From Patescibacteria group bacterium (GTDB lineage Bacteria > Patescibacteriota > JABMPQ01 > JAQVVF01), in NCBI GenBank assembly GCA_028699085.1, contig JAQVVF010000002.1, positions 3,074-67,073 on the forward strand: 64,000 bases of DNA, given 5' to 3'. Shown here one piece after another: positions 35,539-45,147 of this stretch. The translations under genes and the position numbers were made by a program. Below the pieces are notes generated by a model. It had not been told where the DNA came from and did not search any database. It worked only from the letters and a program-made list of their open reading frames with translations. Every line of letters begins with the position of its first letter. Position 1 is the stretch's first letter.

Positions 35539-37302
35539 CTATTTCACTCCAATCGCAAAATATTGTGTCTTAACTGGATATTTCGTAAAATATTTTACAA
35601 TGAATTTCTTGTCTTTCTTAATTATCTTAGCATCTGTAAATGCTGTATTGATATTCTGCCAAACGCCAGTTCCTTTTTTGTATTTTAAGTACAGATTTGA
35701 TTTTGTTGCTGACTTATTCTTCTTTAAGTATTTCTTTAATTGCTTTTTTGTGAATTTAAATGATACTTTGATTTTGTATTTTTGTGATGATTTTTTTACT
35801 TTGTATTTATATAAATTAGTTGTTAATTTCCACTTTTTCAAGAATGTTTTATCAGGATAACCTTTTTGTTTTTTCAGTTTCATCCAATAATTGTTATTCT
35901 TTGTTAATTTAGTTGGAAGATATTTAAATGTTGTTACTGAATCATTACAAGATATTTTCTGTTCTGATAAATATGATGCTAATGTCACTTTCGTTCCGCA
36001 TAAATCAATTTCATAAGTTTCTGTTTTTACTTCTTCAACATTGCCTGCGCTATCAACTGAAAAAAACTTCAAAGTTGTATCTTCAGTAATTGATATTGGA
36101 GCTGAATAAACTGATGAAGAAATTGTTGGAGTTGAACCATCAATAGTGTAATATGTTGCTGAAATTGGTGAATCTGTGTCAGTTGCGGTTAACGTAACAT
36201 TTTGGACTGCAGTATATGTACCGCCTACTGGTGAAGCTACTGTTGTTGGAGCTGTTGTATCTATATACCAAGAAGCAATGTAATTTACTGAAACATCGCC
36301 TGCAGTAATAAAAGTTCCTCCTGCATAAAGTTCGTCATTGTAAACAGCTAACGAAAAAACTACTGGGGGTAAACCTTCCGTACCAGTCATCCCAGACCCT
36401 GCTGGGCTCCAAGAAGAACCATTCCATTTAGCGATATTATATGCAGTAGTACCGCCAGCTGTAGTGAAAGAGCCTCCTGCGTATAGTTCATTATTATAGA
36501 CTGCTAAAGAATAAACATGAGTATTACTACCCGCCATTCCCGTACCAACTGTATTCCAATTTGTCCCATCCCATCTAGCAATATAATTGACTGTATGACC
36601 ACCAGCAGTAATAAAATCTCCTCCAGCATACAATTCATTATTATAAACTGCTAATGTCCTGATTCTATCGCTAGTTGATGAAAGAGTAAGACTGCTCCAG
36701 GCAGTACCGTTCCATTTAGCAATTTTAGCTGCTGGAGTTGTAAAAGATCCCGCAGCATATAGTTCATTATTATATTCTGCTAAAGCATAAACATCATTAT
36801 CCATTCCACTTCCTACTGCACTCCAAGATGAACCATCCCATTTAGCAATATTGCTAACTGGCGCCGTAAAGAATCCTCCGACATATAAATTATTACCATA
36901 AACAGCTAAAGACCGAACTTCATCATCCATCCCTGAATTAATTGATCTCCAATTACTACCATCCCATTCAGCAATATATGTAACTGCAATACCGCCAGCA
37001 GTAGTAAAAGCACCTCCAGCATATAATTTATTATTATAAACAGCCATAGTATATACATAATTATCCATTCCAGAGCCAACTTGGCTCCAACTAGTTCCAT
37101 TCCATTTTGCTATGAAATTTGTAAAAGTTCCTCCAACATAGAGCTCATTATTATATACAGCAAAAGAAGCAACTGGAAAATCTACTCCAGATCCAACAGC
37201 ACTCCAGCTCGAACTAGTTCTCGCAAAAGATTGATTTGCCATAAAACAAGATCCTACAATCAAAATCATAAACAGCGCAATTTTTAAAAACCATTTTTTC
37301 AT
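35539..37302 (-). CDS. Secreted beta-propeller surface protein with K-rich C-terminal domain (paralog 4)
   Basis: Signal peptide MKKWFLKIALFMILIVGSCFMANQSFA, repeated blades, an Ig-like segment, and a K-rich domain about 90% identical to paralogs 1 and 5. Confidence 0.8.
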   Translation of the reverse strand: MKKWFLKIALFMILIVGSCFMANQSFARTSSSWSAVGSGVDFPVASFAVYNNELYVGGTFTNFIAKWNGTSWSQVGSGMDNYVYTMAVYNNKLYAGGAFTTAGGIAVTYIAEWDGSNWRSINSGMDDEVRSLAVYGNNLYVGGFFTAPVSNIAKWDGSSWSAVGSGMDNDVYALAEYNNELYAAGSFTTPAAKIAKWNGTAWSSLTLSSTSDRIRTLAVYNNELYAGGDFITAGGHTVNYIARWDGTNWNTVGTGMAGSNTHVYSLAVYNNELYAGGSFTTAGGTTAYNIAKWNGSSWSPAGSGMTGTEGLPPVVFSLAVYNDELYAGGTFITAGDVSVNYIASWYIDTTAPTTVASPVGGTYTAVQNVTLTATDTDSPISATYYTIDGSTPTISSSVYSAPISITEDTTLKFFSVDSAGNVEEVKTETYEIDLCGTKVTLASYLSEQKISCNDSVTTFKYLPTKLTKNNNYWMKLKKQKGYPDKTFLKKWKLTTNLYKYKVKKSSQKYKIKVSFKFTKKQLKKYLKKNKSATKSNLYLKYKKGTGVWQNINTAFTDAKIIKKDKKFIVKYFTKYPVKTQYFAIGVK

Positions 37303-37363: not shown

Positions 37364-39073
37364 TTAATCAATTTTAAAATCAATCAATCTAAGTTGTAAA
37401 ATTCTCTCTCCATTCCATTCGTTACAATCAAGCTGAAAAACTATATCCATTTTTCCACTTTTATTTAGTTCTTCAATTCGATGTCCATGATTAAAACCAA
37501 TCACATCAAAAATACGATTATCAGAATTTGATTTAATTTTCATTTTCAAATGCTTCTTTGTTTTTCCAACAGGATAAGCATTAACAACTTGAATATCTTT
37601 TGCTAAAAAAACTGGTTTTTGATTTCCCATTCCATGCGGTTCAAAATCTAATAATCTTTCATATAAATTCCAATTCACATCTTTAAAATCGATTTCACTA
37701 TCGATTTCAATTACTGGCTGTAAATCTTTTTCAGTCAATTTTTCAGAAGCTAACTTCTCTAATTTTTCATGAAACTTCTCAAAATTTTCGTTTTTTAAAG
37801 AGAAACCAGCTGCCTGTTTATGTCCGCCATATTCCAATAATAAATCCTTGCAAGAAGAAATTGCAGAAATAATATCGAAAGCTGGAATACTACGAGCCGA
37901 ACCAACAGATTCTATTAGGCCTCTACCGCAAATCAAAGTCGGTCGATTATATTCTTCACAAATTTTGCCAGCCACAATTCCGACAACACCCAAAGGCCAT
38001 TTCCAACCAGATGCCATTAATACTTTTTGATTTTTAAAATCACCAATTTTCTTTTTAGCTTCATCAACTAATTTACTTGTCAAAGCTTGACGACTTGAAT
38101 TTGTTTTATCAATTTTTTTAGAAAGCCAAACAGCCTTATCTAAATCTTCCGTAATCAACAGCATATATGAAGCAGAAGCACGATCCATTCTCCCTGCTGA
38201 ATTAATTCTTGGTGCAATTACAAAACCGACTCTATCGCTATCAACAGTCTTAGCATCAACACGAGCTATTTGCATTAAACTTTGCAAACCAATTCTTTGA
38301 GTCTCTTTTATAATCTTCAGACCGTATTTAACTAAAGTTCTATTTTCAGAAAGAATTGGTGAACAATCCGCGATTGTTCCAATTGTTACCAAATCAAGCA
38401 AGCTCTTTTCCCAACCATCTGCTACTTTTACCCCAGATTCAAATTTTGAAATTATTGCTTGAGCTAATTTGAATGTAATTCCCACGCCAGCCAATTCTTT
38501 ATACGGATATTTATCGCCATTTCTTTTAGAATCTACCACAATATATTTTTTATCAAAATTTTCAGGCACATTATGATGATCAGTTATAACACAATCAATT
38601 CCATATTTTTCTTTTGCATAATCAATCTCTTTTCTATTTGAAACACCACAATCACAACTAACAATTAATTTAATATCTTTTTTTGCCAACCAATCAATCG
38701 CTTTTTTATTCATACCATAGCCTTCCGAAACTCGATCAGGAATATAAACCTGGCCAGCCAAACCAATTTTTTTGAATAATTCAGTCAATAAAACAGACGA
38801 AGTCACTCCGTCTGCATCATAGTCACCAAAAATTGCAACACGCTCTTTATTTTTGATTGCTAACAATAATCTATCAACTGCTCGATCCATATCTTTTAAT
38901 AAAAAAGGATCAAACAAGTCTTTTGAATAATCCGGATTAAAAAATTCATCAATTTTTTCTTGATTATCAATCCCACGATTATGTAATAATTGCAAAATCA
39001 CAGAATCATATTCCGGGAATTGACTTACAATGTCATTGCTTATTTTTTGTTTGACTTTCCAAAATTTTTCCAT
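37364..39073 (-). CDS. recJ: Single-stranded-DNA-specific exonuclease RecJ
   Basis: DHH motifs (VAIFGDYDADGVTS, DCGVSN, ITDHH) and a DHHA1 region (GGHKQAAGF). Confidence 0.85.
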   Translation of the reverse strand: MEKFWKVKQKISNDIVSQFPEYDSVILQLLHNRGIDNQEKIDEFFNPDYSKDLFDPFLLKDMDRAVDRLLLAIKNKERVAIFGDYDADGVTSSVLLTELFKKIGLAGQVYIPDRVSEGYGMNKKAIDWLAKKDIKLIVSCDCGVSNRKEIDYAKEKYGIDCVITDHHNVPENFDKKYIVVDSKRNGDKYPYKELAGVGITFKLAQAIISKFESGVKVADGWEKSLLDLVTIGTIADCSPILSENRTLVKYGLKIIKETQRIGLQSLMQIARVDAKTVDSDRVGFVIAPRINSAGRMDRASASYMLLITEDLDKAVWLSKKIDKTNSSRQALTSKLVDEAKKKIGDFKNQKVLMASGWKWPLGVVGIVAGKICEEYNRPTLICGRGLIESVGSARSIPAFDIISAISSCKDLLLEYGGHKQAAGFSLKNENFEKFHEKLEKLASEKLTEKDLQPVIEIDSEIDFKDVNWNLYERLLDFEPHGMGNQKPVFLAKDIQVVNAYPVGKTKKHLKMKIKSNSDNRIFDVIGFNHGHRIEELNKSGKMDIVFQLDCNEWNGERILQLRLIDFKID

Positions 39074-39210
39074 AATTTCTAATTATCAATTTCTAATTTC
39101 TATTAAATTTCTAATGCATTAATTATCTAATCTTGAACAAAAAAACAAGTTTTCGTTTAGAAATTAGAAATTAATAATTTAATAGAAATTAAAAATTAGA
39201 AATTAAAAAT
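39074..39210. repeat. AT-rich inverted-repeat intergenic element (TTCTAATTT / AAATTAGAA family)
   Basis: The left arm AATTTCTAATTATCAATTTCTAATTTCTATTAAATTTCTAAT is opposed by a right arm TTTAGAAATTAGAAATTAATAATTTAATAGAAATTAAAAATTAGAAATT. Its core CTAATTTCTATTAAATTT is shared with the element at 14720-14865. Confidence 0.55.
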
Positions 39211-40263
39211 TTTGCTTGCAATCATCAATTCTTCATCAGTCTCGATTGCTTTAATTTCTACATTCTTCAAAAATGGCAAACCATTACAAATAGCTTCACG
39301 AGTCAAAGGATCTCCAGATCCAATTGATCCAGTAAATATCAAGACATCAAGCCCTCCCAAAATTGAATAATAAGCGCCTATATATTTTTTTACTCGATAA
39401 ACAAAAATATCAAAAGCAATTAAAGCAATCTTTTCATTTTTTTTAACTCTTTCCAAAACTTTCAACCAGTCTGTTTCACCACATAATGCTAAAATACCAG
39501 ATTTAAAATTCAAAATTTCTTCAATTTGGTCAGCTGTTAGATTTTCTTTCTTCTGCAAATACGTTACAACAGCTGGATCAATATCACCACACCTACTCAT
39601 CATCATCAAGCCTTCTAATGGCGTAAAACCCATTGATATATCAACAGATTTGCCATTCTCGATTGCACAAACAGAACATCCTCCACCCAGATGGCAAGAG
39701 ATTATTCGCAAATTTTTTACTTTTTCCTTGTCACTTTTTACTTTTGAATTTTGACTTTTAACTTTTTCACTCACATACTCATGAGAAATTCCATGAAATC
39801 CATATCGCCTAATCCCATACTTTTTAACATATTTATCACTAATCCCGTATCTCCAAGCTCTCTCTGGAATACTCTGATGGAAAGCAGTATCAAAAACAGC
39901 CACATTCAAAACATTTGGCAAAAGTTTCATCGCTGCCTTAATTCCCATCAAATTTGCTGGATTATGCAATGGCGCTAATTTACTTATATTTTCCAAATCC
40001 TTTAAAACGCTTTCATTAATTTCAATTGGCTCAATAAATTTTGTCCCTCCATGAACAACGCGATGACCAATTTTCACAATATCATCTTTATATTCCTTGA
40101 TTCCTTCCAAGACAATTCCCAAAGCCTGCTCATGATCTTTAACTTCGTTTTCACCAATGTGTTCGATATATCCAGATCTAATTAATTTTAAGTCAACCTC
40201 TGAAAATAATTTATACTTTAAAGAAGTTGAACCTGAATTTATTACCAATATATGTTTTTGCAT
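39196..40263 (-). CDS. ackA: Acetate kinase
   Basis: N-terminal ILVINSGSTSLKYKLF, and HLGGGCSV...SMGFTPLEGLMMMSRCGDIDP motifs. Confidence 0.8.
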   Translation of the reverse strand: MQKHILVINSGSTSLKYKLFSEVDLKLIRSGYIEHIGENEVKDHEQALGIVLEGIKEYKDDIVKIGHRVVHGGTKFIEPIEINESVLKDLENISKLAPLHNPANLMGIKAAMKLLPNVLNVAVFDTAFHQSIPERAWRYGISDKYVKKYGIRRYGFHGISHEYVSEKVKSQNSKVKSDKEKVKNLRIISCHLGGGCSVCAIENGKSVDISMGFTPLEGLMMMSRCGDIDPAVVTYLQKKENLTADQIEEILNFKSGILALCGETDWLKVLERVKKNEKIALIAFDIFVYRVKKYIGAYYSILGGLDVLIFTGSIGSGDPLTREAICNGLPFLKNVEIKAIETDEELMIASKIFNF

Positions 40264-40272
40264 AAAATTAAA

Positions 40273-40803
40273 TTATTTTTTTTCTGGCACAGGCAAACCA
40301 ATCTTCTGCAAAGGTAAATAATTAAAATAATATGAACATCCTTTGATAGAAATTACATAATCCAGAACATCTTTATAAACAGGATTCTTAAACCAATCAT
40401 TCAAAATATAAATATATTCAACCTCGACATTTAGCCTTGATAGAAGTTTTCGGTACTGTTTTATTTTAAAATCACAAGTCTGCAACTTTTCATCAGTTGA
40501 ACCAGCAACATTTTGAAATTTTATCTCGAGAATAAAAAAAGTATTGTTCACAATAACAAAAATTGCATCATCTGGCAAAAGCTTTTTTGAAATAAAATCT
40601 TTATAATCTATTTTCATCTCTTTTAAATATACATACAAACTATTCTTCTTATAAGATTTAGCAACTTCATCTTTTTTGTAATAAATTTTATGCCCAACAA
40701 CATTATAATTCATTTGCTTCTTTATAAATGTCAAAAAATCAACCTTTCCCTCATAATAAAGACCAGTTTTTGTATTAGCGCCTCCAATACCACCTTTTTT
40801 CAT
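40273..40803 (-). CDS. Candidate type II restriction endonuclease (PD-(D/E)xK-like)
   Basis: Immediately downstream of, and co-oriented with, the DNA methyltransferase gene. Carries a PDDAIFVIV...FFILEIKFQ pattern resembling a D...E.K catalytic core. No other recognisable motifs. Confidence 0.4.
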   Translation of the reverse strand: MKKGGIGGANTKTGLYYEGKVDFLTFIKKQMNYNVVGHKIYYKKDEVAKSYKKNSLYVYLKEMKIDYKDFISKKLLPDDAIFVIVNNTFFILEIKFQNVAGSTDEKLQTCDFKIKQYRKLLSRLNVEVEYIYILNDWFKNPVYKDVLDYVISIKGCSYYFNYLPLQKIGLPVPEKK

Positions 40804-40814
40804 ATTTTTTTAAA

Positions 40815-41609
40815 TTATTTATTATTTTCTTCTAATTCCTTAAATCTTTTAATTGATAAATCCAAATATTGTTTCTCGATATCAATTCCTATAAATTTTC
40901 TACCAAACATATATGCAGCTAAACCAGTTGTTGAACTTCCGGTAAAGGGATCTAAGACTAAATCGCCTTTATTTGTACTTGCCAAAACTATTCTTTTTAA
41001 TAAATCCAATGGTTTTTGTGTCGGGTGCTTACCAAATTTTTTTTCAACTACTTTAGGAGTATTAATCGACCAAACAGACCTCATTTGTAATCCTGGCTTT
41101 TTTATTTGATCTTCTGGCCAATCACCATTTTTCATTAAATCATAATTAAAAGTATGCTTTGCCTTCTTCTCTTTTCTGGCCCAAATTAAAGTCTCATGAC
41201 TTGCGGTAAAAAAACGACAACTTAAATTAGGCGATGCATTTGGTTTAAACCAAGATATATCATTCAAAATATGAAAACCAGCTCCCTGCAACGCAAAACC
41301 ACATTGAAATATAGAATGATATGTTCCACTAATCCAAATAGAACCTCCTGGCTTTAAAACTCTTTTACAAGTCTTTATCCAATTAAAATGAAACAAAAAA
41401 TTCTTCTTTGTACCATTGCTCAAATCCCAATTGCCCTTCTTGACACTAACCATTTTACCATTTTGACAAGTAAAACTACCACTAGAAAGAAAATAAGGCG
41501 GATCCGCAAAAATCATATCGACCGAATTTTCTTTTATGTTCTTCAAAATATTCAAACAATTAGCATTATAAAGTTTGAATCTAGGCTCTTCAAAATAAAT
41601 TTTATTCAT
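40815..41609 (-). CDS. DNA methyltransferase (beta-class N6A/N4C, DPPY motif)
   Basis: MIFADPPYFLSS catalytic motif IV in the N-terminal region, and motif I FTGSSTTGLAA near the C-terminus (circularly permuted beta-class order). Confidence 0.8.
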   Translation of the reverse strand: MNKIYFEEPRFKLYNANCLNILKNIKENSVDMIFADPPYFLSSGSFTCQNGKMVSVKKGNWDLSNGTKKNFLFHFNWIKTCKRVLKPGGSIWISGTYHSIFQCGFALQGAGFHILNDISWFKPNASPNLSCRFFTASHETLIWARKEKKAKHTFNYDLMKNGDWPEDQIKKPGLQMRSVWSINTPKVVEKKFGKHPTQKPLDLLKRIVLASTNKGDLVLDPFTGSSTTGLAAYMFGRKFIGIDIEKQYLDLSIKRFKELEENNK

Positions 41610-41623
41610 ATACTTTTTAAATT

Positions 41624-42196
41624 TTACTTTTTAACAATTAATTCACCGATATCTCCATTTTCTACTCCTGCAGAATTTGCTTCATCAGTATCAATTTGAA
41701 AAAAGAATTGAAAATTTTCTTTCACTCTAACAACTACATTATTAAATAATAATCCACGATCACCAAAACATGAAACAGAAACTCTTTGTCCATCTTTCAA
41801 ATTTAATTCTTTAGCCTGTTTTTCTGAAATATGGATATGCCTCATTGCCAAAATCAATCCTTCTAGCAAATCGACAGATCCGTTAGGTCCAATTAATTTA
41901 ATAGGCGCTGAACCAACTACATCTCCAGAAACTCTTAATGGAGGAATATTGCCCAACATAAAACCATCAGTTTTCGAAACTTCTACTTGAGTTCTCGGTC
42001 GGACAGGTCCAATAATTCTAACTTTTTCAATTTTATTTTTTGGCCCTACAACTTGCAAAGTTTCTTCACAAGCAAATTCGCCTTCTTGCGATAAATCTGC
42101 TTTTTTTGTTAATTTATGACCTTTTCCAAAAAGCGAATCTAAATGTTCTTGACTCAAATGAATATGTCGAGCGCTAACTTCAATTTTTATTTTCAT
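41624..42196 (-). CDS. pduL: PduL-type phosphate acyltransferase
   Basis: Two PduL half-domains carrying SARHIHLS and AMRHIHISE motifs. Confidence 0.75.
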   Translation of the reverse strand: MKIKIEVSARHIHLSQEHLDSLFGKGHKLTKKADLSQEGEFACEETLQVVGPKNKIEKVRIIGPVRPRTQVEVSKTDGFMLGNIPPLRVSGDVVGSAPIKLIGPNGSVDLLEGLILAMRHIHISEKQAKELNLKDGQRVSVSCFGDRGLLFNNVVVRVKENFQFFFQIDTDEANSAGVENGDIGELIVKK

Positions 42197-42214: not shown

Positions 42215-43825
42215 TTATATTGCTTTAGTTAAATCAATTCCCGTCATCTCCGCTGGTTTTTCAATGCCCATTAATGCCAAAATTGTTGGCGCAACATCAG
42301 CCAAGGCACCAGTAGGAGATTCTAAGCTCAAATCTGTATTATCAGATTTCCGTTCCAAACCCTTGCCAATCAAAATTAATGGCACTGGATTTGCAGTATG
42401 TTCTTTCTCACTTCGGCCTGTTTGCAAATTAATTTTTTCTTCGCAATTACCATGATCAGCAGTCAAAACTACTACGCCATTATTATTCATTACTTCTGGA
42501 ATTATTTTTTGCAAACAAGAATCCACAAAATCCAAACCTTTTACTGTAGCCTCAATATTTCCGGTATGCCCAACCATATCTGGATTAGCAAAATTAATTA
42601 AAACAAAACTATACCTTTCCTTTATTGCCTTAAGAGCTTCAGAAGTGACGCCTTCTGCTGACATCTCCGGTTTTTCGTCATAAGATTCTACTTTTGGAGA
42701 TGCCACAACTTTATGTATCTCACCTGCAAAAGTTTTCTCGCGTCCGCAGTTAAAAAAGAAAGTGACATGTGCAAATTTTTCTGTTTCAGCAACATGAAAT
42801 TGTTTTAAATTCTTTTTACTGATAATTTCTGATAAGCCATTTGGAGTTTCTTTTTGCTGAAAAGCAATATGATCGCATAATCCTTTTTTATATTCAGTAA
42901 AACAAACAAAAAATAAATCTTCAATTTTTTCACGTTTAAAACCTTTGAAATCATCACTAACAAAAGCTTCTGTAACTTGTCTCGCTCGATCAGTTCGATA
43001 ATTGAAAAAGATTACTGAATCACCTTTTGAAATCTTAGTAACTGGTTTTTCTTTTGATCCTAAAACAACCGGCTCCATCTGCTCATCATAAACTTTTTTA
43101 TTATATGAATCCTTGATTGCTGAAATCGGATCAGAAAAATATTTTCCTTTACCTAGCACCATCGCATTATAGGCTTTTTCAACTCTATCCCAATTATCAT
43201 CTCGATCCATTACATAATATCTACCACTCATTGTCGCTATTTTACCTACTGAAAACCATCCACTTGTTTCCTTTTGAATTCTTCTAACCATATCTATTCC
43301 TGAATCTTTTGGCATATCTCTTCCATCCATAAAACAATGAATAAAAACTTTTTTAACTCTATTCTGCTTAGCTAATTTTAATAACGCAAATAAATGCTCA
43401 ATATGCGCATGTATACCGCCACTACTAATCAAACCCATCAAATGCAAACTGCTTTTATTTTTTTTGACATGTTCAATCGCACCCATCAAAGCTTCATTTT
43501 TAAAAAAGGTCTTATTTAAAATAGCTGTATTTATTAACGGCAAGCTTTGGTAAGAAATTCTTCCTGCTCCCAAATTACCATGACCGACTTCTGAATTTCC
43601 CATATCTCTCCATGGCAAACCAACTTCCTCGCCAGAAGCTTGAATTGTTGTATGAATATAAGTTTTTAGCAATTCATTATAATAAGGCATCTTTGCTTGC
43701 GTAACGCAATTTCCTTTACCTGGAGGAGCAATTCCAAATCCATCTAGAATAATTAATACTGCTTGTTTATATTTTGTAGACATAAATTTTCTATTTCCAA
43801 TTCTCAATTTACAATAAATTTTCAA
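42215..43825 (-). CDS. gpmI: 2,3-bisphosphoglycerate-independent phosphoglycerate mutase
   Basis: AVLIILDGFG...SEVGHGNLGAGR... and a metalloenzyme domain typical of iPGM. Confidence 0.9.
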   Translation of the reverse strand: MKIYCKLRIGNRKFMSTKYKQAVLIILDGFGIAPPGKGNCVTQAKMPYYNELLKTYIHTTIQASGEEVGLPWRDMGNSEVGHGNLGAGRISYQSLPLINTAILNKTFFKNEALMGAIEHVKKNKSSLHLMGLISSGGIHAHIEHLFALLKLAKQNRVKKVFIHCFMDGRDMPKDSGIDMVRRIQKETSGWFSVGKIATMSGRYYVMDRDDNWDRVEKAYNAMVLGKGKYFSDPISAIKDSYNKKVYDEQMEPVVLGSKEKPVTKISKGDSVIFFNYRTDRARQVTEAFVSDDFKGFKREKIEDLFFVCFTEYKKGLCDHIAFQQKETPNGLSEIISKKNLKQFHVAETEKFAHVTFFFNCGREKTFAGEIHKVVASPKVESYDEKPEMSAEGVTSEALKAIKERYSFVLINFANPDMVGHTGNIEATVKGLDFVDSCLQKIIPEVMNNNGVVVLTADHGNCEEKINLQTGRSEKEHTANPVPLILIGKGLERKSDNTDLSLESPTGALADVAPTILALMGIEKPAEMTGIDLTKAI

Positions 43826-43905: not shown

Positions 43906-45147
43906 TTATTTCAATAGCTCTTCTATTTCCATCAACCTATTATATTTACACACTCTTTCTCCTCTCGATAATGATCCAGACTTAATCTGTGCAGCATTTG
44001 TTCCAACACAAAGATCAGCAATAAAAGTATCTACTGTCTCTCCAGATCGGTGCGAAATCATTGTCGCATAGCCTTTTGACTTTGCTAATTTTATGCATTC
44101 AAAAGTTTCTGTCAAAGTACCAATTTGATTTGGTTTTATCAAAACAGAATTTGCACAATTCTCGGCAATGCCTTTTTTTACTCTCTCAATATTTGTTACA
44201 AACAAATCATCACCAACAATTTGTATTTTGTCACCAAGTTTTTCAGTAATTTTTTTATAACCGTCCCAATCTTCTTCAGCCAAAGGGTCTTCAATACTTT
44301 TTATTGGATATTTTGTAACCCAATCATTCATCATTGCAATAAGATGATCTGACTCAATGCATTTTCCTGAATTTAAACAGTACCCTTTTTCCTTAGTATA
44401 AAAAGAAGATGCAGCTACATCCAATCCAATATTGACATCAGCACCTGGTTTATAACCAGCCTCCTCGATTGCTTTTATTATTGTCTCAATTGCATGTTCA
44501 TTATTATCCAATCTTGGTGCAAATCCGCCCTCATCGCCAACGCCGATCGAATATTCTCCTCTTTGTAAAATATCTTTCAACGCATGAAAAACTTCTGAAC
44601 CAACCCTGACTTTTTCATAAAGATTAATTGCGTTAGGTACAATCATAAATTCCTGAACATCCAATCCAGAATCAGCGTGTTTACCGCCATTGATAATATT
44701 AAAATAAGTATGCGGCAAAACAAAATTGTTATTACCAAAAATCTCTCCAATATATTGATATAATTCTAATTCTTTAGAATTACTAGCAGCAACACAACAT
44801 GCCAATGACACACCCAAAATTGCATTAGCCCCTAATTTTGATTTATTAGGCGTGCTATCTAAAGCAATCAAAGTTCGATCAATTTTTTCTTGCTTAAAAA
44901 CATCCATATTAATTAATCTTTCCGAAATAATATCATTGACATTCTTACATGCTCTAAGCACTCCTTTTCCGCCATATCTTTTTTTATCATTATCTCTTAA
45001 TTCCAAAGCCTCAAATTTTCCTGTTGAAGCGCCAGAAGGAACTCTAGCAATACCAAATTTTCCATCATCAAGACTAACTCTAACTTCAACAGTCGGTTCG
45101 CCTCTTGAATCTAAAATTTCACGAGCTCTAACTTTTTTTATTTTCAT
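43906..45147 (-). CDS. eno: Enolase
   Basis: REILDSRGEPTVEV N-terminus and the SHRSGET motif. Confidence 0.9.
   Translation of the reverse strand: MKIKKVRAREILDSRGEPTVEVRVSLDDGKFGIARVPSGASTGKFEALELRDNDKKRYGGKGVLRACKNVNDIISERLINMDVFKQEKIDRTLIALDSTPNKSKLGANAILGVSLACCVAASNSKELELYQYIGEIFGNNNFVLPHTYFNIINGGKHADSGLDVQEFMIVPNAINLYEKVRVGSEVFHALKDILQRGEYSIGVGDEGGFAPRLDNNEHAIETIIKAIEEAGYKPGADVNIGLDVAASSFYTKEKGYCLNSGKCIESDHLIAMMNDWVTKYPIKSIEDPLAEEDWDGYKKITEKLGDKIQIVGDDLFVTNIERVKKGIAENCANSVLIKPNQIGTLTETFECIKLAKSKGYATMISHRSGETVDTFIADLCVGTNAAQIKSGSLSRGERVCKYNRLMEIEELLK

What the first reader, a model, noticed from the sequence alone, without database searches (positions are those of the whole stretch)
40273..41609. 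Compact type II restriction-modification pair
A beta-class DPPY DNA methyltransferase (40815..41609) is followed 11 nt downstream by a 176-aa protein with a PD...(D/E)xK-like core and no other homology. The order and tight spacing are typical of MTase-REase operons, so this would be a defence island within housekeeping context. The REase assignment is inferential.
Basis: partly seen in the sequence, partly recalled or inferred. Interest (0 to 1): 0.5.

Follow-up and report, generated by a model that had tools for sequence, protein, structure and literature searches.

The report
Two-gene restriction-modification insertion, probably GATC
Two adjacent genes in a small uncultured bacterium encode a DNA methylase and a small DNA-cutting enzyme that travel together between very different microbes: an ordinary kind of anti-virus defence whose cutting enzyme belongs to a widespread family nobody seems to have characterised, and which most likely targets the sequence GATC.

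Summary
Both ORFs exist as described, on the minus strand: a 264-aa beta-class DPPY N6/N4 methyltransferase (41609..40815), an 11-nt gap, then a 176-aa protein (40803..40273). The restriction-modification reading holds.

- **Spread.** It has more than 3,000 homologues, in at least 591 species-level genomes across many phyla, at 60-82% identity.
- **Linkage.** Its neighbour is almost always a DNA methyltransferase, in unrelated genomic contexts.
- **Insertion.** In the window the pair sits between pduL and ackA. Distant relatives have pduL-ackA-recJ contiguous without it.
- **Target site.** The methylase is DpnA/LlaDCHIB-like (50-52% identity) rather than CcrM/HinfI-like (41%). It lacks CcrM's Arg44 and C-terminal domain. 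In other genomes the same nuclease family sits beside a DpnM-like Dam methylase. GATC is the most depleted 4-bp palindrome across host loci. The site is therefore probably GATC, not GANTC; this is inferred.

This is a new member of a known kind, of modest interest.

The parts
40815..41609 (-). Beta-class N6-adenine (or N4-cytosine) DNA methyltransferase, 264 aa, DpnA/LlaDCHIB-like. It is a single domain with no CcrM-type C-terminal domain and no N-terminal regulator.
   Evidence: PF01555 E 1e-59. PADLOC MTase_II PDLC03371 E 1e-99. 52% identical to the second MTase of a S. aureus plasmid DpnII-type cassette, 49.8% to LlaDCHIB of pSRQ700, 41-42% to CcrM. DPPY at 36-39; FxGxG-type motif DPFTGSSTTG at 220-229.
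40804..40814 (-). 11-nt spacer between the MTase stop and the nuclease start. No room for a promoter or a controller gene, which implies co-transcription with M expressed first.
   Evidence: Sequence read. No terminator-like site between pduL and ackA.
40273..40803 (-). 176-aa PD-(D/E)XK nuclease, the predicted type IIP restriction endonuclease. Proposed catalytic residues are E18, D78, E93 and K95, with Q97 and the G101-S-x-D-E-K106 motif also conserved.
41624..42196 (-). Upstream boundary of the insertion: PduL-type phosphotransacylase. Its stop is 14 nt before the MTase start.
   Evidence: PF06130 E 4e-71. PduL is directly followed by AckA in L099/L100.
39196..40263 (-). Downstream boundary of the insertion: acetate kinase. 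Its start is 9 nt after the nuclease stop.
   Evidence: PF00871 E 7e-110. Synteny pduL-ackA-recJ without M-R in L099/L100.

Best explanation
This is a compact, horizontally acquired type IIP restriction-modification module.

- **Modification.** The 264-aa beta-class methyltransferase methylates the adenine of a short palindrome on the host chromosome.
- **Restriction.** The 176-aa PD-(D/E)XK protein, presumably a homodimer, cleaves the same site when unmethylated, for example on incoming phage or plasmid DNA. It would use the D78/E93/K95 metal site.
- **Expression.** The genes are read M first, then R after 11 nt. They are transcribed from the host's eno-gpmI-pduL...ackA-recJ gene string, into which they are inserted.
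- **Target.** The recognition site is most likely GATC, with m6A protection.

Shown: the gene structure, the folds and motifs, the linkage across taxa and the insertion. Inferred: cleavage activity, dimeric state, the GATC site and the cut position. A 5' overhang such as ^GATC is suggested only by resemblance to EcoRI-branch enzymes.
For: **(1) Both genes are intact, with complete catalytic motifs**.

**(3) The two genes are linked across taxa.**
- In 6 of 6 contigs found by exact-protein look-up the homologue abuts a PF01555 MTase.
- Of 80 species-representative genome loci, 68 have a window-type MTase hit next to the nuclease gene (0-66 nt away in 64, about 0.5-0.6 kb in 4).
- Among those 68, 63 are in M>R order and 5 in R>M order (one of them on the opposite strand).
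- Of the 12 without such a hit, 7 carry a DpnM-like D12 MTase upstream, and 3 of these also have a circularly permuted PF01555 MTase directly downstream of the nuclease, 2 have it further downstream after an inserted gene, and 2 have none.
- Of the other 5, the nuclease lies 120-195 nt from the contig end in 3, and in L054 an unrelated ORF lies upstream.

**(4) The distribution is sporadic and cross-phylum at 60-82% identity.** Hosts include Patescibacteria, Elusimicrobia, Proteobacteria, Bacteroidales, Clostridia, Akkermansia and a Woesearchaeote. Flanking genes are unrelated.

**(5) An empty site exists.** pduL-ackA-recJ are contiguous in L099/L100.

**(6) Several lines point to GATC.**
- The window MTase is 50-52% identical to the DpnA-type second MTase of DpnII cassettes. 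One of these is pSRQ700 (LlaDCHI), whose REase is PF04556 DpnII. It is 41% identical to CcrM.
- It shares their loop-2B signature DPPYFLSxxGxxxxxGxxVxVxKGxWD and their PNLSCR loop-45.
- It lacks CcrM's Arg44, the G1 contact (PMC6787082).
- The alternative partner MTase matches DpnM (2dpm) at E 1.6e-75. It keeps the residues aligned to E. coli Dam K9, N120, R124 and P134. That these four are GATC contacts is my own recollection of the Dam literature.
- In N. gonorrhoeae a frameshifted homologue follows the truncated 'DpnIIB-like' MTase of the dam/drg (NgoAXI, GATC) locus (PMC4269198, PMC6789123).
- Across 80 host loci GATC is the most depleted 4-bp palindrome (O/E 0.60, CI 0.53-0.67). GANTC is unremarkable at 0.81.
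Against: - No biochemical data exist for any member of the nuclease family.
- No REBASE comparison was possible.
- NCBIfam and PADLOC gave no hit for the nuclease, and Pfam PF20472 is below threshold.
- The window itself shows no GATC avoidance (187 observed, 190 expected). If the site is GATC, either the acquisition is recent or selection is weak.
- About 50% MTase identity does not guarantee identical specificity.
- The depletion analysis has no control set of genomes lacking the system.
- A MTase that methylates every GATC could also protect against a nuclease with a longer GATC-containing site.
- No compositional anomaly marks the insertion.
Confidence: 0.85

Rival explanations
1. It is a HinfI/CcrM-type R-M system recognising GANTC, as the best solved-structure and NCBIfam hits for the MTase would suggest.
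For: CcrM (6pbd) is the top PDB sequence match, E 9e-56. The NCBIfam CcrM equivalog model gives the best score (233 bits, far below its cutoff of 830).
Against: - Identity to CcrM is 41%, against 50-52% to DpnA-type GATC MTases.
- CcrM's G1-reading Arg44/Pro45 and its NFKG(T/R)R loop-45 are replaced by the DpnA-type sequences.
- The C-terminal domain that CcrM needs to hold the non-target strand is absent; the protein ends at residue 264.
- The same nuclease family pairs with DpnM-like Dam MTases.
- GANTC is not specially depleted in host loci (O/E 0.81) or in the window (140 observed, 155 expected).
Confidence: 0.07
2. It is an R-M system whose nuclease recognises a longer or degenerate site containing GATC (for example TGATCA or RGATCY), with a 4-bp-specific MTase giving over-complete protection.
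For: MTase-based inference only bounds the nuclease's site from below. Palindromic hexamers AGATCT, TGATCA and GGATCC are the most depleted NGATCN contexts in host loci (0.37-0.44).
Against: All 16 NGATCN contexts are depleted (0.37-0.84), which fits selection at the 4-bp level. Hexamer palindromes are commonly depleted anyway. A 176-aa subunit is small for 6-bp recognition, though PvuII manages it (own knowledge).
Confidence: 0.08
3. The 176-aa protein is not a restriction enzyme. It is a MutH-like, methylation-directed nicking or repair nuclease, or another DNA-processing factor that works with GATC methylation.
For: It has a PD-(D/E)XK fold like MutH (that MutH has this fold is my own knowledge). 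It is consistently associated with Dam/DpnA-type MTases. The family is unusually conserved, and the nuclease is often more conserved than its MTase partner.
Against: - The distribution is sporadic and cross-phylum, and the M and R genes sit tightly together (mostly 0-66 nt apart), sometimes with swapped MTase partners.
- Distant relatives lie next to a Dam-family MTase on Lactobacillales plasmids.
- The N. gonorrhoeae copy has decayed together with its MTase.
- These features are those of selfish R-M modules, not vertically inherited repair genes.
Confidence: 0.04
4. The adjacency is a coincidence: an orphan regulatory MTase next to an unrelated small hypothetical protein.
For: No direct functional evidence exists. 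Annotators call the protein 'hypothetical'.
Against: Adjacency is conserved in nearly all of about 85 independent loci from many phyla, while the flanking genes differ. Both genes are absent together at the syntenic site of relatives.
Confidence: 0.01

Closest known systems
DpnII / LlaDCHI-type GATC restriction-modification cassettes (dpnM-dpnA-dpnB; pSRQ700 LlaDCHIA-B-R)
   Same: The window MTase is the counterpart of DpnA/LlaDCHIB: 50% identity to LlaDCHIB, with the same loop signatures. In other hosts the same nuclease family sits in a DpnM-like + nuclease + second-MTase cassette. The probable target is the same, GATC.
   Different: The nuclease is not a DpnII-family protein (PF04556). It is about 110-130 aa shorter and unrelated in sequence. 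The window has only the DpnA-type MTase and no Dam/DpnM-type partner.
CcrM / M.HinfI family (GANTC)
   Same: Beta-class catalytic domain with DPPY. It is the best match among solved structures.
   Different: No C-terminal DNA-binding domain, no Arg44/Pro45 loop-2B, only 41% identity, and paired with a nuclease rather than orphan.
EcoRI-branch PD-(D/E)XK type IIP endonucleases (BstEII, NgoMIV/Cfr10I/Bse634I/SgrAI, MunI, BsoBI, PspGI)
   Same: Shared core fold. The PD...ExK hairpin places D78 at the start of one strand and E93-x-K95 in the next.
Pfam PF20472 (PDDEXK_11) proteins of Lactobacillales and streptococci
   Same: Detectable sequence homology (33% identity, tblastn 4e-9). All catalytic and signature residues are shared. 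The one Lactobacillales plasmid locus examined (L. plantarum) lies next to a D12 'DNA adenine methylase'.
   Different: The window protein scores below the Pfam threshold (16.2 against 23.7 bits). It lacks the roughly 20-40 aa insertions of the Lactobacillales branch.
Neisseria gonorrhoeae NgoAXI (dam/drg) locus
   Same: It contains a 52%-identical MTase and a 47%-identical homologue of the nuclease, in the same M>R order.
   Different: Both Neisseria genes are frameshifted. The active gene there is the methyl-dependent Drg or Dam (PMC4269198, PMC6789123). The two papers I read describe the truncated MTase but not the nuclease remnant.

Membership tests
Type II (IIP) restriction-modification system | Separate, adjacent genes for a DNA MTase and an endonuclease | tested here: met
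   The ORFs are 11 nt apart on the same strand.
Type II (IIP) restriction-modification system | MTase with intact SAM-binding and catalytic (D/N/S)PP(Y/F) motifs | tested here: met
   Full-length PF01555 match; DPPY and DPFTGSSTTG are present.
Type II (IIP) restriction-modification system | Partner protein with a nuclease fold and conserved catalytic residues | tested here: met
   The AF2 model has a PD-(D/E)XK fold. E18, D78, E93 and K95 are invariant.
Type II (IIP) restriction-modification system | The two genes are inherited and transferred as a unit | tested here: met
   Adjacent in nearly all of about 85 loci from many phyla with differing flanks. Both are absent from the syntenic site in L099/L100.
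Type II (IIP) restriction-modification system | Sequence-specific cleavage blocked by the cognate methylation | not testable with these tools
   This needs expression and digestion assays.
DpnII-type GATC cassette | DpnA-type beta-class MTase | tested here: met
   50-52% identity to the second MTase of DpnII cassettes, with shared loop signatures.
DpnII-type GATC cassette | Dam/DpnM-type alpha-class MTase in the cassette | tested here: not met
   None in the window; the flanks are pduL and ackA. It is present in a minority of related loci.
DpnII-type GATC cassette | DpnII-family endonuclease (PF04556) | tested here: not met
   The 176-aa protein has no PF04556 match even at E<=1. The pSRQ700 REase matches at 3.6e-86.
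DpnII-type GATC cassette | GATC specificity | tested here: inconclusive
   Indirect support only: MTase relatedness, DpnM-like alternative partners, the Neisseria dam/drg locus, and GATC depletion in host loci but not in the window.
CcrM / M.HinfI family | [quoted passage not shown] | tested here: not met
   The protein ends where CcrM's catalytic domain ends (alignment A2).
CcrM / M.HinfI family | Loop-2B Arg44/Pro45 and loop-45 residues that read GANTC | tested here: not met
   Gln/Asn at the Arg44/Pro45 columns; PNLSCR instead of PNFKGTR.
Pfam PF20472 (PDDEXK_11) | Score at or above the gathering threshold (23.7 bits) | tested here: not met
   16.2 bits, E 0.009. It is nevertheless linked by sequence to members that pass, so it is a divergent relative.

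The most novel reading that the evidence does not exclude
The 176-aa protein represents an uncharacterised and unusually conserved family of very small restriction endonucleases (60-82% identity across bacterial phyla and one archaeal MAG). It cuts GATC. It has repeatedly and non-homologously taken the place of the DpnII-type nuclease in DpnII-like cassettes, pairing with at least three different MTase arrangements. In some Patescibacteria the partner MTase is fused to a full-length LexA, which could tie the system's expression to DNA damage.
Probability: 0.5. Interest if true: 0.45.

Novelty: new member of a known kind. Interest (0 to 1): 0.3.

Why it matters
- **For this genome:** it marks a small defence insertion into the glycolysis / acetate-fermentation gene string of a reduced Patescibacteria genome. 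It also predicts that the chromosome carries m6A, probably at GATC.
- **More generally:** it flags a large family (over 3,000 sequences, at least 591 species) annotated as 'hypothetical' that is very likely a restriction endonuclease. At about 175 aa it is among the smallest known. If it cuts GATC it would be a compact MboI/DpnII isoschizomer. It would also be a clean example of one nuclease module being swapped between different methylase partners.
- **Limits:** none of this challenges current understanding of R-M systems.

Tried and rejected
It was uninformative: GATC 187 observed against 190 expected, GANTC 140 against 155. Only GGCC, TTAA, TATA and GCNGC are mildly low.
- **Sequence search of the nuclease against PDB.** Nothing meaningful, either alone or as a profile.
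- **NCBIfam and PADLOC.** No hit for the nuclease.
- **Phage collection tblastn.** No match.
- **Foldseek against BFVD.** Only four uncharacterised viral proteins at E<=1e-3.
- **AFDB50 fold search.** The library was unavailable.
- **Promoter and terminator scans.** At chance level.
- **Metagenome scan with AckA for close relatives.** It returned only relatives at 33-50% identity. Two of them did give the empty-site synteny.
- **Literature search for PF20472/PDDEXK_11.** No papers. A search for GATC-linked restriction-modification in Patescibacteria returned one paper, which I did not read.
- **The GANTC assignment.** I first took the CcrM hit as implying GANTC and rejected that after the loop-by-loop comparison.
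- **REBASE BLAST.** Not possible with these tools.

Full report
**Observation**

A 264-aa ORF lies at 41609..40815 and a 176-aa ORF at 40803..40273, separated by 11 nt.

They sit in a long run of minus-strand housekeeping genes:
- enolase (43906..45147)
- cofactor-independent phosphoglycerate mutase (42215..43825)
- PduL-type phosphotransacylase (41624..42196)
- [MTase, 176-aa protein]
- acetate kinase (39196..40263)
- RecJ (37364..39073)

The gaps around the pair are 14, 11 and 9 nt. No terminator-like site lies between pduL and ackA. Promoter-like matches are at chance level. GC content of the pair (0.26-0.33) does not differ from its surroundings.

**The methyltransferase**

It matches PF01555 end to end (E 1e-59) and a PADLOC type II MTase model (E 1e-99). 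DPPY (residues 36-39) precedes the SAM-binding motif DPFTGSSTTG, which is the beta-class order.

The best solved relative by sequence is CcrM (6pbd, E 9e-56), which would suggest GANTC. That inference does not survive closer inspection.

- **Closest annotated relatives.** A tblastn against plasmids shows they are the second MTase of DpnII-type cassettes (Dam-family MTase + 'site-specific MTase' + type II REase). Identity is 52% in staphylococcal plasmids, 49.8% in Lactococcus pSRQ700 and 44% in Lactiplantibacillus plasmids. The pSRQ700 REase is a DpnII-family protein (PF04556, E 3.6e-86). From my own knowledge, pSRQ700 encodes LlaDCHI, a GATC system related to DpnII.
- **Identity to CcrM.** Alphaproteobacterial CcrM is only 41-42% identical.
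- **What the alignment shows.** In alignment A2 the window enzyme has Gln/Asn at the Arg44/Pro45 columns. It shares the DpnA-type loop-2B signature DPPYFLSxxGxxxxxGxxVxVxKGxWD and the loop-45 sequence PNLSCR (CcrM has PNFKGTR). It ends where CcrM's catalytic domain ends. It is therefore a DpnA/LlaDCHIB-type enzyme, not a CcrM/HinfI-type one.

**The 176-aa protein**

Pfam gives only a sub-threshold PF20472 (PDDEXK_11) hit (E 0.009). NCBIfam, PADLOC and PDB sequence searches give nothing. It is nevertheless far from an orphan.

- **Family size.** There are 3,282 homologues in the 5.8-billion-protein collection, and the best 120 are all 74-83% identical. In the 50%-clustered library, 791 clusters have E<=1e-3.
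- **Link to Pfam.** Distant relatives on Lactobacillales plasmids (33% identity) and their family do pass PF20472.
- **Conserved residues.** A 50-sequence alignment spanning both branches has invariant G8, T11, G14, L15, E18, Y57, P77, D78, E93, K95, Q97, G101, S102, E105, K106, K113 and D145. This is a textbook E...PD...ExK constellation plus family-specific motifs.
- **Structure.** AlphaFold2 on this alignment gives a confident model (pLDDT 86.6, pTM 0.83). D78 lies at the start of one beta-strand and E93-x-K95 in the next.

The fold class is clear, but there is no close solved relative.

**Linkage and mobility**

- **Exact-protein look-ups.** All six contexts show the homologue abutting a PF01555 MTase, while the flanking genes differ completely.
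- **Taxonomic spread.** They include Patescibacteria, Saccharibacteria, Elusimicrobia, Alpha- and Gammaproteobacteria, Bacteroidales, Clostridia, Akkermansia, Zixibacteria, Nitrospirota, Planctomycetia and a Woesearchaeote, at 60-82% identity.
- **Adjacency with the window-type MTase.** Of the 80 loci kept, 68 have such a hit next to the nuclease gene. It lies 0-66 nt away in 64 of them and about 0.5-0.6 kb away, with an extra ORF between, in 4. The order is M>R on the same strand in 63 and R>M in 5, one of those on the opposite strand.
- **The other 12 loci.** Seven carry a DpnM-like D12 MTase upstream. Three of these also have a circularly permuted PF01555 MTase directly downstream of the nuclease, two have it further downstream after an inserted gene, and two have none (one contig ends there). 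In three more the nuclease lies 120-195 nt from the contig end. In L054 an unrelated 183-aa ORF lies upstream. I did not examine L014.
- **Relative conservation.** The nuclease is often more conserved than its partner MTase (for example 61-63% against 44-47% in the Bacteroidales loci). It keeps its identity across MTase swaps.
- **Empty site.** Two metagenomic relatives (L099, L100) have PduL, AckA and RecJ contiguous with no M-R between them. The pair in the window is therefore an insertion.
- **Population stability.** The same M-R-AckA-RecJ arrangement, with an identical nuclease protein, recurs in other sequencing runs.

**Recognition site (inferred)**

Four independent lines point to GATC.

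1. The MTase groups with DpnA/LlaDCHIB enzymes, as above. All MTases partnered with this nuclease family are 50-56% identical to LlaDCHIB and 41-43% to CcrM.
2. The alternative upstream partner matches DpnM (2dpm) at E 1.6e-75 and E. coli Dam at 7e-41. It keeps the residues aligned with Dam K9, N120, R124 and P134. That these are GATC contacts is from my own knowledge of the Dam structures.
3. In N. gonorrhoeae, leuS is followed by drg, then a frameshifted MTase 52% identical to the window's, then a frameshifted homologue (47%) of the 176-aa protein. The literature calls that MTase 'DpnIIB-like' (PMC4269198). It treats the locus as NgoAXI, where dam (GATC, confirmed by SMRT) or drg (cuts GmATC) alternate (PMC6789123).
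4. Pooled over 80 carrier loci, GATC is the most depleted of the sixteen 4-bp palindromes (O/E 0.60, bootstrap CI 0.53-0.67). It ranks in the top three in 54 of 85 loci, and the depletion holds in every NGATCN context. GANTC is unremarkable at 0.81.

Against this:
- The window itself shows no GATC avoidance (187 observed against 190 expected).
- I had no matched set of non-carrier genomes as a control.
- Fifty percent MTase identity does not prove identical specificity.
- The MTase evidence only bounds the nuclease's site.

I put GATC at roughly 0.7, given that the pair is an R-M system.

**Mechanism**

The most likely picture is a type IIP system. The MTase deposits m6A on both strands of the palindrome. 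The 176-aa protein acts as a homodimer and cleaves unmethylated sites through a D78/E93/K95 metal centre.

M is translated first, and the 11-nt spacing favours coupled expression. There is no room for a controller protein, and no HTH is fused to the MTase in this copy. Expression therefore presumably depends on read-through from the host gene string.

Structural resemblance to the EcoRI branch hints at a 5' overhang, but that is weak inference.

**Rivals**

- **A GANTC system.** Disfavoured by the loop and domain comparison.
- **A longer GATC-containing site.** Cannot be excluded.
- **A MutH-like non-restriction role.** This fits the fold and the Dam association. It does not fit the sporadic, cassette-like, plasmid-associated distribution or the joint decay in Neisseria.
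- **Coincidental adjacency.** Excluded by the co-occurrence data.

**Comparison with known systems and novelty**

The system works like a DpnII/MboI-type GATC R-M. It fails the DpnII membership test on the nuclease (no PF04556) and on the Dam-type MTase (absent here). It is not a CcrM/HinfI family member.

The nuclease belongs to the PD-(D/E)XK superfamily as a divergent relative of PF20472. Annotators call its members 'hypothetical' or 'PD-(D/E)XK nuclease superfamily protein'. I found no paper naming the Pfam family PF20472/PDDEXK_11. I could not consult REBASE, where it may already be listed as a putative enzyme.

Verdict: a real and ordinary kind of feature, and a new member of a known kind.

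Noticed in passing
L001:4502-5995, L002:247-1740, L015:2479-3996, L058:1939-3402, L081:2524-3993, L083:2557-3996: In at least five independent Patescibacteria/Saccharibacteria loci the partner MTase is fused in frame to a full-length LexA. The architecture is LexA_DNA_bind + Peptidase_S24 + N6_N4_Mtase, 479-505 aa, with diverged LexA parts. This could couple control of the R-M system to RecA/SOS-type self-cleavage. The window's MTase has no such extension.
   Followed up: partly
L055:3019-5272, L066:340-2302, L074:3030-5395; also L004, L056, L087: An alternative cassette surrounds the same nuclease family: a DpnM-like D12 MTase, then the nuclease, then a circularly permuted PF01555 MTase (SAM motif before HPPY). 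In L004 and L087 a GmrSD/DUF262-type gene is inserted inside the cassette.
   Followed up: partly
L059:3546-3971, L060:3504-3932, L062:3464-3907: A conserved ORF of about 142 aa lies between M and R in three distant hosts (Zixibacteria, a Gammaproteobacterium, Elusimicrobia). It carries the motif WWHV.P.D.AY.KRGKF.ASTY.QAEFYG. The L060 copy has no Pfam match; the other two were not scanned. It may be an accessory or control protein. L058 has an unrelated 196-aa ORF in the same position.
   Followed up: partly
L008:3294-4526 (N. gonorrhoeae NZ_CP119140.1, about 10.2-11.5 kb): Downstream of leuS and drg, the truncated 'DpnIIB-like' MTase of the NgoAXI locus is followed by a frameshifted homologue (47% identity) of the 176-aa nuclease. 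The two Neisseria papers I read describe the MTase remnant but not this third gene. The record is a chromosome filed in the plasmid collection.
   Followed up: partly
window 1-64000: GGCC (48 observed, 74 expected, z -3.0) and GCNGC (78 against 107, z -2.8) are the most under-represented short palindromes in the window. They may point to other R-M systems elsewhere in this genome. GATC is not depleted.
   Followed up: no
window 35539-37302 (-): A 587-aa protein with an N-terminal signal-like segment and about ten repeats of a '...VYNNELYAGG.F...' unit (weak beta-propeller-type hits). It also has a CHB_HEX_C_1/Fn3_assoc domain and a lysine-rich tail. It is probably a surface protein.
   Followed up: no
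L005:7597-8532: In one carrier contig a weak DpnII-family (PF04556) ORF lies 2.5 kb downstream of the M-R pair, suggesting a local cluster of GATC-related genes.
   Followed up: no
window 1-64000: Nearly all ORFs of at least 100 aa that look like genes are on the minus strand, and GC skew is negative throughout 30-52 kb. This is consistent with one replichore carrying strongly co-oriented genes.
   Followed up: no
L003:1125-3528: In a Buchananbacteria genome the M-R pair lies about 1.6 kb from a PduL / metallo-beta-lactamase-fold / acetate kinase cluster, on the opposite strand. This is a second, independent placement near the same metabolic genes, probably by coincidence.
   Followed up: no
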